Shown here piece after piece: positions 1-3,000 of a DNA stretch of 64,000 nucleotides. Source of the stretch: Escherichia coli (lineage in GTDB: Bacteria > Pseudomonadota > Gammaproteobacteria > Enterobacterales > Enterobacteriaceae); assembly GCF_030013205.1 (NCBI RefSeq), contig NZ_CP122649.1, one strand, 5' to 3'. The first letter of the stretch is position 1, and each line of letters opens with the position of its first letter. The position numbers were made by a program.

Positions 1-3000
1 CATTTGCCTGATTAAAAGCGAGGAGGGCGTTATATGTATTGTTGAAGCCCTGCCGTATGTCTGTGTAATCGGATGGGCAAATACCTATAGAAATATTGCC
101 TTTAAAAAGCACCTTCATCACAGTAGCCAGCTGGGTGGAGAGCAGTTTGCAGATTTCCTCTTCAAGATAGTTGCGGTTAATTTGTTTATGCCATCGCCCG
201 CCTCTTGCACACCACCGTTCATTAAGAAATGTGCTTGGATAATAAGTCCTGCGGTCTTTATTTATGGGTAAGAGCTTTTTCAGCATCTCTTCTCCGGCCC
301 CGGCAGCTGAGAACACACGAACAGAACGGCCGTCAAAAATCCCTGTGTTGATCGCTGTCATTAACTCCATAGGCTCAGGTCCATAATCGAAGAGATTTCC
401 TGTGGAGAAAACGATCAACTCCTCATCAGGTTCTGATATCGAATGGATAAGGTTACATAGCGTCGAATAATGACCATGAGGGTCTGCCAGAAAGAAAACC
501 CTTCCTGAAAAATTAGTCAGATCAATTGTCTGGACGTGCTCGGATGCCATAAATGCCTCTTTCTGAAATTGCATTAATACTACCGGATGAAAGTCATCAA
601 TTTTTTCGATAAGAGGGGTAATTTTTGTGAGTGTCCAAAATGGAGCTAGAAATCATTTTTCGGTTTCCGAGCCGTATCAACTGTAATGCACCTCAGTTGT
701 TTTATTTTTGGTATAAAAACGCTGAGCAAAATATAGTTTTTGCGTGTGTTGCTCAGGTGTACATGAATCTAGGGTTGTATCTGGATTAAAACTGAAGGAT
801 TCTTTTTTAACAAGGACTTACGTTAGTGTTTTGTCCCGTTTAATGTTGACCTAAAGCAACCATTGGTGTATAAATTCCATAACAAAAGTGGTGGGCTAAA
901 TAAACCAATACGAGGGTTTCTGCATGACTGAATTAGCAAAAACAAAACTGGCTGTGGCTGAATCAAACTCTACTGAACTTGAGACACTCAAAGTTGTTAT
1001 TGATGATGGTAGTAAAGCGGCAAAACTGGTTTGCACTAACAATCAAGGTGACCTTGTACCTTTATTGACTCAAAATAGTTTCGTTGCAGATTTCCGGGTA
1101 AGCCATGACGGACTTATTCCATTCAATTATCTAATTGATGGTCTTCAACGATTCTCGCACCACAGCGAATCAAGCAATGCTTTAGAAACTACCGACGTTG
1201 CGCATCAGTACGATGAAATCAGTCGTCTTAATGTTCACCATGCTCTACATTCCTCAGGTCTAATGCCACAGGATGTTCATCTCTACGTAACTTTGCCACT
1301 CAGTCAGTTTTATACCGCTCTGGGTGAAACCAATAATGAAAACATCCAACGAAAAAAAGACAACCTGATGAAGCCGGTGGAGCGTTATATTGATGGTAAA
1401 CGTGTTTCATTTAATGTTGTTTCAGTTACCGTTTTCCCGGAATCCCTTCCAGCGGTAACGCGTGCTGATGAAATCGAATCAATTGAATCTTTTGAATCAA
1501 GCCTGGTTATCGATTTAGGTGGGACAACACTTGATGTTGCAAGCATTACAGGTCAGCTGGAACAGATCTCCAGTGTCAGGGGTTTTGACCGTATTGGTTG
1601 CTCAATCGTATATGATGAAATCCGTCGTTATTTGGATTCTGCAAAGCTGAATGCAAGTAACGCCTATATTCATCACCTAGTCGATAATCGTGAAAACAAA
1701 GCCTCGCTCAAGGTGTCCCCGGAAGATCTTGACGGCGTGTTCAATGCTGTTAATGGGGCTGTGGCGCAACTTCAAGAAAAAGTGATTAAAGCAGTCACTC
1801 AAGTGGAAGAACGGCCGCATAATGTTTTCCTTGTTGGTGGAGGTTCTTACCTGATTGAACCGGCAGTTCGTAAACATTTTGACAAATCGAAAATCATCAT
1901 GGTTGATAATCCGCAATTCGCACTTTCACTGGCTATCGCAGATACTGTTTTTGCATGATGATGGTTTTGCATGATGATGGTTTTGCAAAGGGGAGAGTTT
2001 TATGACTAAAAAATCTGAGAAGGAAAACGATCGTATTCAGATTAGTGCGTTTTGGTTATCGGAACGACAATCTCCGTATGCATATAATTTTTTGAAAAAA
2101 AATGCCCTAACACATCGTGGCGAGCAGATTTCTCTAATAAGATCTGCAATCACTACGGGGTTAGTGCTAAATAATCTCTTCCCCGAGTTATCTAGTTTTA
2201 TTAATGGACTGAATGAGAGATTAACAGCTGCTGATCTAAATCGATTTTTTAATGATGAATTTAATAAAGACAAATTAAACAATGAAAATTTGAAAGAACA
2301 AATAAGCTTTATGCTTGATTCGAAATTCAATGAATTATTTTCAATGATTAATGGCTGTGATTTTTCTAAGGCAACTTTTTCAACTACTAGTCAATCTGAT
2401 GTCAGTGAAACATTAAAGGCAGAGAGGGTAAGGGATCAGCGGCTGGAATTAATACCTAAAGAACTGACTGTAAATCCCAAACCTGAGACTTTAGAGATTT
2501 TAACGCCGATTGAGAGCGCAAAAAAGAATGATTCAGGTTTAAATACTAGTCATGGTTCTGCTGCTGTTAGCGCCTCACAAAGCGAAAACACGGTGCTGAG
2601 TGAACATGCGCAAATCCAAGGTGTGACAAGGAAGCCGAAGAAAAAGGCCAATGCAAACCTCGCAAATCTTGCGAAGTAAGTATAGTAATATCAATTGATT
2701 AGATTGAGTTATCTATTAATAAAAAGTCAGCTTACCAGCTGGCTTTTTTTTGGTATATTATTAACAGGTGAGGGGGAATGGTAAACCGGTTTCATGTACT
2801 AAATGAATCCCTCGTTGTCACATCTCCAGTTAAGCCAGTTTGAAGAATTATAGAGCCAGTTCTAAGAAATCATTAAAATTCGCGTGGGTTGATTCAGGTC
2901 GAACCAGTTACGATTTTGGATAAATTATTTTTGGTTAGGTAAACCACTAAAAAAGGTGGTTTAGGCCCCGTTTACTGTTCTTTGTTTGCACGATGTATGT

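What the first reader, a model, noticed from the sequence alone, without database searches (positions are those of the whole stretch)
1..550. Divergently transcribed phosphatase-like gene upstream of the partition cassette
The minus-strand ORF starting at 550 carries DPHGHY and GNLFDYGPEP motifs resembling the metal-binding motifs of lambda-type Ser/Thr phosphatases. A phosphatase divergent from parM is unexpected; the 370-bp gap between them contains an inverted repeat gctgagcaa...ttgctcagg (about 720-760) that could be a shared operator.
Basis: seen in the sequence. Interest (0 to 1): 0.35.

Follow-up and report, generated by a model that had tools for sequence, protein, structure and literature searches.

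The report
trhO: a dead phosphatase-fold conjugation gene
The flagged gene is the already-named trhO gene of R27-type IncHI resistance plasmids; it descends from lambda-type protein phosphatases but has lost nearly all catalytic residues while staying strongly conserved, so it probably helps plasmid transfer by binding something rather than by removing phosphate.

Summary
A minus-strand ORF starts at window 550, runs off the window, and carries DPHGHY and GNLFDYGPEP. It is identical to R27 R0015 = trhO, the first gene of the Tra2 'Z operon' (trhO-eexB-lipoprotein-trhZ) of IncHI plasmids.

It is a true homologue of lambda Ser/Thr phosphatase. Pfam Metallophos scores just above cut-off. An AlphaFold model (pLDDT 91) matches 1G5B best (E=3e-12). 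Profile-profile probability is 99.9%.

Compared with lambda phosphatase, D49->N, R53->Y, N75/H76->A/G, H139->P/S/A and H186->R, and H22 becomes Y in distant members. All 44 outgroup relatives keep every one of these residues. The gene is nevertheless under strong purifying selection (dN/dS 0.058) and heads the same four-gene cassette in every H-type transfer region examined. It is best read as a conserved pseudophosphatase acting non-catalytically in conjugation or exclusion.

The pairing with parM is incidental, because relatives lack parMR. The inverted repeat is real (8 bp) but not beyond chance (28% of shuffles). It is lost in an 81%-identical relative, and published expression data show the two divergent units are not co-regulated.

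The gene is known; the loss of catalytic residues appears unreported. Interest is modest.

The parts
1..550 (-). 5' part (codons 1-183 of 315) of trhO (R27 R0015), a lambda-phosphatase-fold protein with degenerate catalytic motifs; the rest of the gene lies beyond the window's left edge
   Evidence: Translation. Identical to WP_001160355.1 in pO111_1 and R27. Named trhO (Z operon) in the supplement of PMC7366339.
548..550 (-). Conserved ATG start codon of trhO
   Evidence: 315-aa form in 12 of 13 family clusters; conserved with its Shine-Dalgarno in relatives.
556..560 (-). Shine-Dalgarno AGAGG, 5 nt upstream of the ATG
   Evidence: Read from the sequence. AGAGG is kept in CP122665 and L004, and GGGGA is found in L005.
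572..574 (-). Upstream in-frame ATG used as start by PGAP (323-aa form); probably not the real start
   Evidence: CTG in the 81% relative; ATG followed directly by TAA in L004.
469..486 (-). Motif I remnant DPHGHY (lambda D20-x-H22). Asp is invariant in the 315-aa family (Asn in two distant relatives, P0018 and P0022); His is kept only in the closer family members
   Evidence: Alignments.
370..399 (-). Motif II remnant GNLFDYGPEP (lambda GD49LVDR53G): bridging Asp is Asn and Arg is Tyr, invariant in the family
290..301 (-). Motif III remnant GAGE in place of GNHE (lambda N75, H76 lost)
551..923 (.). 373-bp divergent intergenic region between trhO and parM
   Evidence: 72% identical overall to the CP122665 relative.
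722..756 (.). Inverted repeat CTGAGCAA-N19-TTGCTCAG; real but not shown to be functional
   Evidence: Chance frequency 27.7%. Drops to 5 of 8 pairs in the 81% relative. Not recognisable in L004/L005.
846..874 (+). Likely parM promoter, TTGACC-17 nt-TATAAA, inside the best-conserved part of the gap
   Evidence: Read from the sequence. Region 841-923 is 90% identical in the 81% relative. The TATAAA/TTGAC blocks are conserved in all four lineages aligned. Function is inferred.
924..1958 (+). parM (R27 R0014), actin-like partition ATPase
   Evidence: Pfam StbA_N 2.8e-63 and ParM_N 3.8e-53.
2002..2679 (+). parR-like gene (R27 R0013)
   Evidence: Position after parM; 'ParR-like protein' in PMC7366339 supplement. 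Only a weak Plasmid_stab_B match, E=0.06.

Best explanation
The ORF is trhO (R0015), the first gene of the Z operon (trhO-eexB-R0017 lipoprotein-trhZ) in the Tra2 transfer region of R27-type IncHI plasmids. Its product is a soluble, probably cytoplasmic protein. It keeps the lambda-phosphatase/PrpA-PrpB fold but has lost the second metal site entirely, along with the bridging Asp, the general-acid His and both phosphate-binding Arg.

Shown: it cannot carry out the canonical two-metal phosphoester hydrolysis of its family, because the required residues are absent.

Inferred: it is a pseudophosphatase. The five former active-site loops are the most conserved parts of the protein, and the gene is under strong purifying selection. 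The remodelled pocket, now lined with invariant Asn, Tyr, Arg, Lys and His, most likely still binds a partner (a protein or a phosphorylated ligand). In this way it supports efficient H-type conjugation and/or the exclusion function of the three exported proteins it is co-translated with.

Its expression follows the transfer regulon: activated by TrhR/TrhY and repressed through HtdA. It does not follow the neighbouring parMR partition cassette, whose adjacency is a by-product of partition modules inserted beside the Z operon.
For: Identity: the protein is identical to the one encoded by R27. R0015 is labelled trhO (Z operon), R0016 eexB, R0017 lipoprotein and R0018 trhZ.

Homology and fold: Pfam Metallophos above cut-off; hhalign probability 99.9%, E=4e-32 against 36 active relatives; AlphaFold pLDDT 91, pTM 0.91; best PDB fold match is lambda phosphatase 1g5b, E=3e-12, TM 0.72-0.76.

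Loss of catalytic residues: at lambda D20/H22/D49/D52/R53/N75/H76/E77/H139/R162/H186/D202, the R27-type family (13 clusters plus P0015) reads D-H/Y-N-D-Y-A/S-G-E-P/S/A-M/L/I/F-R-N. Four more distant relatives in the same gene position are also degenerate. At the metal-ligand, general-acid and R53 positions, all 44 outgroup proteins keep the lambda residue except one (I for N75 in P0047); a few others vary only at E77, R162 or D202. Three alignment methods agree. The outgroup is PrpA/PrpB-like.

Selection: dN/dS is 0.058 over codons 1-148 against an 89%-identical gene. Against an IncHI2-like relative, dN is 0.21 with synonymous sites saturated. Motif II (10 of 11 residues), GAGE, SDY, GRNPVNSIRK and HINTGS are invariant across the 13 clusters.

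Context: the same position at the head of a four-gene cassette of exported proteins is seen in every H-type Tra2 locus examined, down to relatives found only by profile search. The nearest catalytically intact relative lies in an unrelated context.

Partner proteins: the three downstream proteins have signal peptides or a lipobox, and TrhO has none.

Regulation: all four Z genes rise 8.3-17.1-fold in drR27 at 25 C, and TrhR/TrhY activate the Z operon.

Phenotype: trhO and trhZ increase transfer frequency, as reported by Lawley 2003 and summarised in PMC11628540.
Against: - No biochemical test was possible.
- The window protein itself keeps Asp and His of motif I plus an Asn at the bridging position, so a single weakly bound metal and some unconventional activity cannot be excluded for the IncHI1/HI2 members.
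- The non-catalytic binding role, its partner and the step of conjugation affected are inference only.
- The primary mutagenesis and exclusion papers (Lawley 2003; Gunton 2008) could not be read here. I therefore cannot say whether the trhO phenotype was shown with non-polar mutations, nor which ORF is eexA.
- Databases and one paper label the protein 'metallophosphoesterase' or 'phosphodiesterase'.
Confidence: 0.62

Rival explanations
1. TrhO is an active phosphatase or phosphodiesterase, as annotated. It would dephosphorylate a host or plasmid substrate to promote conjugation, using a non-canonical or single-metal site.
For: Pfam Metallophos is above its gathering cut-off. The fold is lambda-phosphatase-like. 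D23, H25 and D55 (lambda D20, H22, D52) are present in the window protein. It is labelled 'phosphodiesterase' in PMC7366339 and 'metallophosphoesterase' by PGAP.
Against: All three ligands unique to metal site 2 (N75, H139, H186), the bridging D49, the general acid H76 and the phosphate-binding R53 and R162 are replaced in every family member. H22 is Tyr in 8 of 13 family clusters. All 44 outgroup proteins keep these residues, apart from one N75 substitution (P0047) and two changes at R162 (P0046, P0047). From established knowledge of lambda phosphatase mutagenesis (Zhuo et al. 1994, recalled, not read here), single substitutions at these positions reduce activity by orders of magnitude.
Confidence: 0.1
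2. TrhO is the cytoplasmic component of the IncHI entry/surface-exclusion system rather than a transfer-promoting factor. It would act with EexB (and EexA) in both donor and recipient.
For: [quoted passage not shown] The exclusion proteins are reported to be needed in both donor and recipient. The cassette is inherited as a unit.
Against: Published summaries attribute to trhO a positive effect on transfer frequency, not exclusion. Exclusion is attributed to EexA and EexB. TrhO has no export signal, while the exclusion factor EexB is in the outer membrane. This rival overlaps with the best explanation, which leaves the process open.
Confidence: 0.15
3. trhO is a decaying remnant of a captured phosphatase gene with no function of its own. 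The reported transfer defect would then come from polar effects on eexB, R0017 and trhZ.
For: Catalytic residues are lost. The four genes overlap and are co-transcribed, so insertions would be polar. The original complementation data could not be checked here.
Against: dN/dS is 0.058. The reading frame is intact and about 300 aa long in lineages whose synonymous sites are saturated. There are 104 invariant columns across 13 clusters down to 54% identity. The AlphaFold model is confident.
Confidence: 0.05
4. The inverted repeat at 722-756 is a shared operator through which one regulator controls trhO and parM together.
For: A perfect 8-bp inverted repeat with a 19-nt spacer lies roughly mid-gap. 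Its position, upstream of the candidate promoters on both strands, would suit an activator site.
Against: 27.7% of shuffled gaps have an equal or better repeat. It drops to 5 of 8 pairs without compensation in the 81% relative, and the region is only 68% identical there, against 90% for the parM promoter block. It is not recognisable in L004 and L005. The Z genes rise 8-17-fold in drR27 while parM stays at 1.02-fold. In L009 the cassette has no parM neighbour at all.
Confidence: 0.05

Closest known systems
Bacteriophage lambda Ser/Thr phosphatase (NinI, PDB 1G5B) and the E. coli PrpA/PrpB branch of PPP-type metallophosphoesterases
   Same: The fold is the same and the sequence is collinear over about 250 residues: Foldseek E=3e-12, hhalign 99.9%, 23-27% identity. 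Non-catalytic framework residues around every motif are kept, for example GG-W, the Gly of GD/GN, E77 and T-G. The nearest sequence relatives are PrpA/PrpB-like.
   Different: Seven of the nine residues that bind the two metals or the phosphate, or act as general acid, are replaced family-wide. There is a 12-residue invariant insertion after motif V (SIRKxHGxPLTN) and a C-terminal extension of about 65 residues forming three beta-strands. The protein is encoded in a conjugation operon rather than a phage nin region or the chromosome. NCBIfam PrpA/PrpB scores are 14-24 bits against cut-offs of 326-332.
TrhO (R0015) of the Z operon, Tra2 region of IncHI1 plasmid R27
   Same: The protein sequence and neighbourhood are identical. 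This is the same gene. Reported properties: it raises transfer frequency, it is activated by TrhR/TrhY and countered by HtdA, and it does not respond to temperature.
   Different: Nothing differs in sequence. What is added here is that the 'phosphodiesterase' label is not supported by the catalytic residues.
Vps29 (retromer subunit), a metallophosphoesterase-fold scaffold protein
   Same: It has a metallophosphoesterase fold used mainly for protein binding. It appears among the fold matches (5w8m, E=1.3e-4). It is offered as a functional analogy for what a catalytically degenerate member of this fold can do; that part rests on my own knowledge.
   Different: It is eukaryotic and belongs to a different branch of the superfamily (YfcE/MJ0936-like). 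No specific relationship exists, and the fold match is much weaker than to lambda phosphatase.
parMRC-type partition locus of plasmid R1 (ParR operator/centromere parC overlapping the parM promoter)
   Same: The window has parM followed by a parR-like gene. The most conserved part of the gap lies over and just upstream of the putative parM promoter, which is where parC lies in R1 (own knowledge).
   Different: No array of direct repeats like the R1 parC iterons was found in 540-930. The flagged inverted repeat lies about 90 bp upstream of the putative -35 and is not conserved. The ParR-like protein is 225 aa with only a marginal Plasmid_stab_B match.

Membership tests
Metallophosphoesterase superfamily, PPP / lambda-PP-PrpA-PrpB branch (as homologue) | Significant sequence similarity to the family profile | tested here: met
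   Pfam PF00149 scores 23.4-24.8 bits against a cut-off of 21.5, covering profile positions 2-116 only. hhalign against 36 active members gives probability 99.9%, E=4e-32 over 207 columns.
Metallophosphoesterase superfamily, PPP / lambda-PP-PrpA-PrpB branch (as homologue) | Alpha/beta-sandwich metallophosphoesterase fold | tested here: met
   AlphaFold model with pLDDT 91 and pTM 0.91. The top Foldseek PDB hits are 1g5b chains A and B, E=3e-12 and 4.5e-12, TM 0.72-0.76 normalised to lambda-PP.
Active PPP-type metallophosphatase (as enzyme) | Motif I, D-x-H (lambda D20, H22; metal 1 ligands) | tested here: inconclusive
   Present in the window protein (DPHG). Asp is invariant in the 315-aa family (Asn in the distant relatives P0018 and P0022). 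His is Tyr in 8 of 13 family clusters and Gly is Ala in five.
Active PPP-type metallophosphatase (as enzyme) | Motif II, G-D-x-x-D-R (lambda D49 bridging ligand, R53 phosphate binding) | tested here: not met
   The family has GNLFDY: D49->N and R53->Y, invariant in the family.
Active PPP-type metallophosphatase (as enzyme) | Motif III, G-N-H-E (lambda N75 metal 2 ligand, H76 general acid) | tested here: not met
   GAGE in all 13 family clusters (GSGE in P0015). GNHE, or GNHD in four, in 43 of 44 outgroup proteins; P0047 has I at N75.
Active PPP-type metallophosphatase (as enzyme) | Motif IV His (lambda H139, metal 2 ligand) | tested here: not met
   Pro, Ser or Ala in the family; His in all outgroup proteins.
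Active PPP-type metallophosphatase (as enzyme) | Motif V, G-H (lambda H186, metal 2 ligand) | tested here: not met
   GRNP, with an invariant Arg, in place of GHTP.
Active PPP-type metallophosphatase (as enzyme) | Metal-dependent phosphoester hydrolysis | not testable with these tools
   This needs purified protein and enzyme assays.
NCBIfam PrpA (PRK11439) / PrpB (PRK09968) equivalogs | Score at or above the curated cut-off | tested here: not met
   24.1 bits against 332, and 13.8 bits against 326.
TrhO of the IncHI Tra2 Z operon | Sequence identity to R27 R0015 | tested here: met
   R27 (NC_002305) encodes the same WP_001160355.1, and the region is 100% identical. R0015 is labelled trhO in the PMC7366339 supplement.
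TrhO of the IncHI Tra2 Z operon | Position as first gene of the cassette trhO-eexB-lipoprotein-trhZ within Tra2 | tested here: met
   Seen in L001 and L003, with the same layout in L004, L005, L007, L008 and L009.
TrhO of the IncHI Tra2 Z operon | Disruption lowers conjugative transfer frequency | not testable with these tools
   Known only from a secondary summary of Lawley et al. 2003. The primary paper is not held.
Pseudoenzyme (pseudophosphatase) | Clear homology to an enzyme family together with loss of residues essential for catalysis | tested here: met
Pseudoenzyme (pseudophosphatase) | Maintained by purifying selection (not a decaying gene) | tested here: met
   dN/dS is 0.058. Against the IncHI2-like relative, dN is 0.21 with dS saturated. 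There are 104 invariant columns in 13 clusters.
Pseudoenzyme (pseudophosphatase) | Demonstrated lack of catalytic activity | not testable with these tools
   This needs biochemistry.

The most novel reading that the evidence does not exclude
TrhO is a metal-free 'reader' derived from a PrpA/lambda-type phosphatase. Its remodelled pocket (invariant N52, Y56, R214, R221, K222, H224, H121, K122) would bind, without hydrolysing, a phosphorylated host protein or a nucleotide such as a dinucleoside polyphosphate (ApaH and PrpE are in the same superfamily branch). By doing so it would couple the donor's physiological or envelope-stress state to H-pilus conjugation, for instance as a decoy that shields a phospho-substrate from the host PrpA/PrpB phosphatases. 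It would be the first PPP-fold pseudophosphatase with a defined role in bacterial conjugation.
Probability: 0.12. Interest if true: 0.65.

Novelty: new variant of a known kind. Interest (0 to 1): 0.33.

Why it matters
IncHI plasmids are major carriers of multidrug resistance, including typhoid MDR, mcr-9 and tet(X4). About 1,400 of the 72,556 plasmid records searched contain this region.

trhO is one of the few transfer-modulating genes of these plasmids with a reported phenotype but no mechanism. Databases propagate an enzymatic label ('metallophosphoesterase', 'phosphodiesterase') that the sequence does not support. Recognising it as a conserved pseudophosphatase changes which experiments make sense: look for a binding partner or ligand, not a substrate. 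It also gives a clean bacterial example of a PPP-fold enzyme repurposed after recruitment into a conjugation operon.

The work also removes two false leads. The neighbourhood with parM is incidental, and the inverted repeat is not a supported operator.

Tried and rejected
- PADLOC defence models: no credible hit for any of the four operon proteins, so a defence-system reading was dropped.
- NCBIfam: only far-below-cut-off PrpA/PrpB hits, plus a spurious uracil-DNA-glycosylase stretch that also appeared in the PDB sequence search at E about 0.2. I judged these as noise.
- Lawley et al. 2003: I tried to read it by DOI and by a remembered PMC id, and neither is held. Gunton et al. 2008 is cited by several papers but is not held. 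Which ORF is eexA therefore stays unresolved.
- Name confusion: one plasmid paper lists 'TrhZ 138 aa' and 'TrhO 267 aa'. This is consistent with L009, where the TrhO-like protein is 267 aa and the last gene 138 aa.
- Promoter scan: the consensus scan gave one minus-strand candidate for trhO (TTGATA-17-AATGAT, 680-652). That stretch is only 48% identical in the 81% relative, so I do not assign the Z promoter.
- parC-like iterons: I looked for direct-repeat arrays in the gap and found none.
- TrhO as a membrane protein: the one hydrophobic window (residues 266-284, KD 1.77) coincides with confidently predicted beta-strands of the core sandwich. I rejected the membrane reading.
- Full-gene dN/dS against more distant relatives could not be computed, because synonymous sites are saturated.
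Full report
**1. What is in the sequence**

Translating window 1-550 on the minus strand gives an uninterrupted 183-codon frame. It begins MASEHVQTIDLTNFSGRVFFLADPHGHYS and contains GNLFDYGPEP. It runs off the left edge of the window, so the ORF listing does not report it.

The first 2.7 kb of the window is 100% identical to many large conjugative plasmids. In total 283 plasmid records match, 218 of them at 99% identity or more. In pO111_1 the complete gene is annotated as a 323-aa 'metallophosphoesterase', WP_001160355.1. Plasmid R27, the IncHI1 archetype, encodes the identical protein in the same neighbourhood.

- It has an AGAGG Shine-Dalgarno 5 nt upstream.
- 12 of 13 family clusters are called from this position, at 313-316 aa.
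- The upstream ATG used by PGAP (window 572-574) is CTG in an 81%-identical relative and is followed directly by TAA in another relative.

**2. Identity of the gene**

The supplement of Gibert et al. 2020 (PMC7366339) lists R0013 as ParR-like and R0014 as ParM-like. It lists R0015 as 'trhO (Z), phosphodiesterase', R0016 as 'eexB (Z), exclusion protein', R0017 as 'lipoprotein (Z)' and R0018 as 'trhZ (Z)'. R0019 and R0020 are parB and parA. This matches the order and sizes in R27 exactly.

The flagged ORF is therefore trhO, the first gene of the Z operon of the Tra2 transfer region. The four genes overlap at their stop and start codons. The three downstream products have an N-terminal signal peptide or a lipobox (VTGC), whereas TrhO has none.

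According to that paper, TrhR and TrhY activate the Z operon and HtdA counteracts them. A review summarising Lawley et al. 2003 states that trhO and trhZ increase transfer frequency. I could not obtain the primary papers.

**3. It is a true relative of lambda phosphatase**

- Pfam Metallophos is just above its gathering score, covering only the first 116 of 191 profile positions.
- The best PDB sequence hit is lambda phosphatase 1g5b, E=0.005, over motifs I-II.
- An exhaustive profile search of 1.84 billion representative proteins found only 59 hits at E<=0.001. These run from the tight family, through a few intermediates, to ordinary 210-320-aa proteins that NCBIfam places nearest PrpA/PrpB.
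- A profile-profile comparison of the family against 36 of those proteins plus lambda phosphatase gives probability 99.9%, E=4e-32 over 207 columns.
- An AlphaFold model built on a 59-sequence alignment is confident, with mean pLDDT 91 and pTM 0.91. Its best match among solved structures is lambda phosphatase, E=3e-12 and TM 0.72-0.76 normalised to the target. Other PPP phosphatases follow.

**4. It has lost the catalytic machinery**

I took the authentic lambda NinI sequence from NC_001416 and aligned it with the family and all full-length hits. At lambda positions D20, H22, D49, D52, R53, N75, H76, E77, H139, R162, H186 and D202, the outgroup reads D-H-D-D-R-N-H-E-H-R-H-D. At the metal-ligand, general-acid and R53 positions, all 44 outgroup proteins keep the lambda residue except one (P0047 has I at N75). 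A few others vary only at E77, R162 or D202.

The R27-type family reads D-H/Y-N-D-Y-A-G-E-P/S/A-M/L/I-R-N. The more distant relatives P0015, P0016, P0018, P0020 and P0022 are also degenerate. MAFFT and hhalign give the same correspondences:
- GDxHG corresponds to ADPHG (or ADxYA).
- GDLxDRG corresponds to GNLFDYG.
- GNHE corresponds to GAGE.
- xHAxxP corresponds to C(P/S)SDY.
- GHTP corresponds to GRNP.
- IDTG corresponds to INTG.

All three ligands unique to the second metal, the bridging aspartate, the general-acid histidine and both phosphate-binding arginines are therefore gone.

**5. It is not a decaying gene**

Over the 148 codons I hold for the 81%-group relative (89% nucleotide and 94% amino-acid identity), dN/dS is 0.058. 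Against an IncHI2-like relative, synonymous sites are saturated (pS 0.86) while dN is 0.21.

Across 13 clusters, down to 54% identity, 104 columns are invariant. The most conserved stretches are the former active-site loops: TGNLFDYGP-P, GAGE, SDY, GR-P-NSIR--H and GN-LHINTGS. A family-specific 12-residue insertion after motif V and a C-terminal extension of about 65 residues forming three beta-strands are also conserved.

The only hydrophobic window (residues 266-284) coincides with confidently predicted core strands, so I regard the protein as soluble.

**6. Context across relatives**

The TrhO-like gene heads a four-gene cassette of similar sizes in every locus with enough sequence. In the longer loci the cassette lies next to trhC/traV on one side. 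On the other side lie the htdA-F-K genes and a protein of about 1,400 aa in the position of the R27 rsp gene.

In IncHI1/IncHI2-type loci it is flanked by parMR on one side and parAB on the other. In L007 and L008 parAB is absent, and in L009 both partition modules are absent, so the gene is divergent from htdA instead. The closest relative with intact catalytic residues (P0029) lies next to ssb and a tRNA synthetase gene, an unrelated context.

The degenerate state therefore coincides with residence in H-type transfer regions. The pairing with parM is incidental.

**7. The intergenic region and the 'shared operator'**

The inverted repeat is real: CTGAGCAA (722-729) and TTGCTCAG (749-756), with a 19-nt spacer. 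Several results argue against a function:
- In 1000 dinucleotide-preserving shuffles of the 373-bp gap, 27.7% contain a perfect inverted repeat of at least 8 bp with a 3-40-nt spacer.
- In the 81%-identical plasmid the arms become CTGAAGAA and TTTATCAA, which is 5 of 8 pairs with no compensatory change. The region is 68% identical there, whereas 841-923 is 90% and 791-840 is 80% identical.
- In the 72%- and 54%-identity loci no counterpart is recognisable. The blocks conserved in all four lineages lie over a good promoter candidate for parM, TTGACC-17-TATAAA at 846-874.
- In the published expression tables, trhO, eexB, R0017 and trhZ rise 8.3-, 12.1-, 17.1- and 16.0-fold in the htdA-derepressed plasmid at 25 C, while parM is unchanged at 1.02-fold.

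Divergent co-regulation through a shared operator is therefore not supported.

**8. How it most likely works**

Shown:
- The gene is trhO.
- It is expressed with the Z operon under the transfer regulon.
- It has the lambda-phosphatase fold.
- It lacks the residues needed for two-metal phosphoester hydrolysis.
- It is under strong purifying selection and is inherited with three exported proteins, one of which is the exclusion factor EexB.

Inferred:
- TrhO acts without catalysis, through its remodelled and highly conserved former active-site face.
- It binds a protein partner or a phosphorylated ligand in the donor cytoplasm.
- This supports efficient mating and/or the exclusion function of the cassette.

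I put about 0.85 on 'no canonical phosphatase activity' and about 0.5 on the binding/scaffold role, which gives roughly 0.6 overall. The rivals are a residual unconventional enzyme, a dedicated exclusion component, a functionless remnant with polar mutant effects, and the shared-operator idea. They are listed with their evidence in the Rival explanations section.

**9. Comparison with what is known, and novelty**

As an object, the gene is already known. It was sequenced with R27, named trhO and has a reported transfer phenotype. As a protein, it is a member of the metallophosphoesterase superfamily by descent and fold, but it fails five of the defining catalytic features. It should not be filed as a phosphatase or phosphodiesterase.

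I found no statement of this in the literature I could search. The two primary papers were out of reach, so priority cannot be excluded. Catalytically degenerate proteins with this fold exist elsewhere (for example Vps29, and my own knowledge), so the kind is not new.

I rate it a new variant of a known kind, with modest interest (0.33).

Noticed in passing
window 1949-1987: A perfect 16-bp tandem repeat, TTTTGCATGATGATGG x 2.4 (100% matches). It starts in the last codons of parM, spans its stop codon and fills most of the parM-parR spacer. It could be a recent duplication or a cis-acting site of the partition cassette.
   Followed up: partly
window 572-574 vs 548-550: RefSeq/PGAP annotates trhO from an upstream ATG (323 aa). 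That ATG is not conserved in relatives, and the downstream ATG has the Shine-Dalgarno. This is probably a start-codon over-extension propagated through WP_001160355.1.
   Followed up: yes
window 791-923: This is the most conserved part of the trhO-parM gap (80-90% identity in the 81% relative, with blocks conserved in four lineages). It contains TTGACC-17-TATAAA (846-874) and an imperfect inverted repeat, ATTGGTGTAT/ATAAACCAAT (862-871 / 900-909), that brackets the -10. It is a better candidate for a ParR operator or centromere than the flagged repeat.
   Followed up: partly
window 2002-2679: The ParR-like protein is 225 aa and matches Plasmid_stab_B only marginally (E=0.06). Its C-terminal half is low-complexity and Ser/Ala/Lys-rich. 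It is much larger than the R1 ParR as I recall it (about 117 aa).
   Followed up: no
window 3244-4680: Three overlapping ORFs of 150, 150 (annotated form about 144 aa, from a later start) and 187 aa. They correspond to the 'transfer repressor' and 'plasmid transfer proteins' of R27, i.e. htdA, htdF and htdK.
   Followed up: partly
window 4791-9098: A 1435-aa ORF in the position of the R27 rsp gene ('IncHI-type conjugal transfer protein RSP'); a paper in the search results (PMC6764697) reports a class of bacterial Ig-like proteins required for IncHI conjugation. In pO111_1 no CDS is listed for this stretch and an IS1203-family element sits there, so that plasmid may have lost rsp.
   Followed up: no
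L007, L008, L009 (relatives): The parAB module (absent in L007, L008 and L009) and the parMR module (absent in L009) are missing around an otherwise syntenic trhO cassette. This suggests both partition modules of IncHI1/HI2 were inserted on either side of the Z operon.
   Followed up: partly
L008 9462-9962 and L010 3497-3994: A YdjM-family (PF04307) gene on the opposite strand is inserted between the third and fourth genes of the cassette in two distant relatives.
   Followed up: no
protein P0014: A 281-aa 'Comamonas sp. 3-hydroxyacyl-CoA dehydrogenase, partial' entry shares 78% identity with TrhO over 18% of its length. It is probably a chimeric or misassembled metagenome contig.
   Followed up: no
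literature, not sequence: eexA is not assigned to any R27 ORF in the transcriptome supplement, which labels only R0016 as eexB. The main text speaks of 'three genes' in the Z operon, while the table marks four as (Z). Which ORF is eexA remains unclear from the accessible sources.
   Followed up: partly
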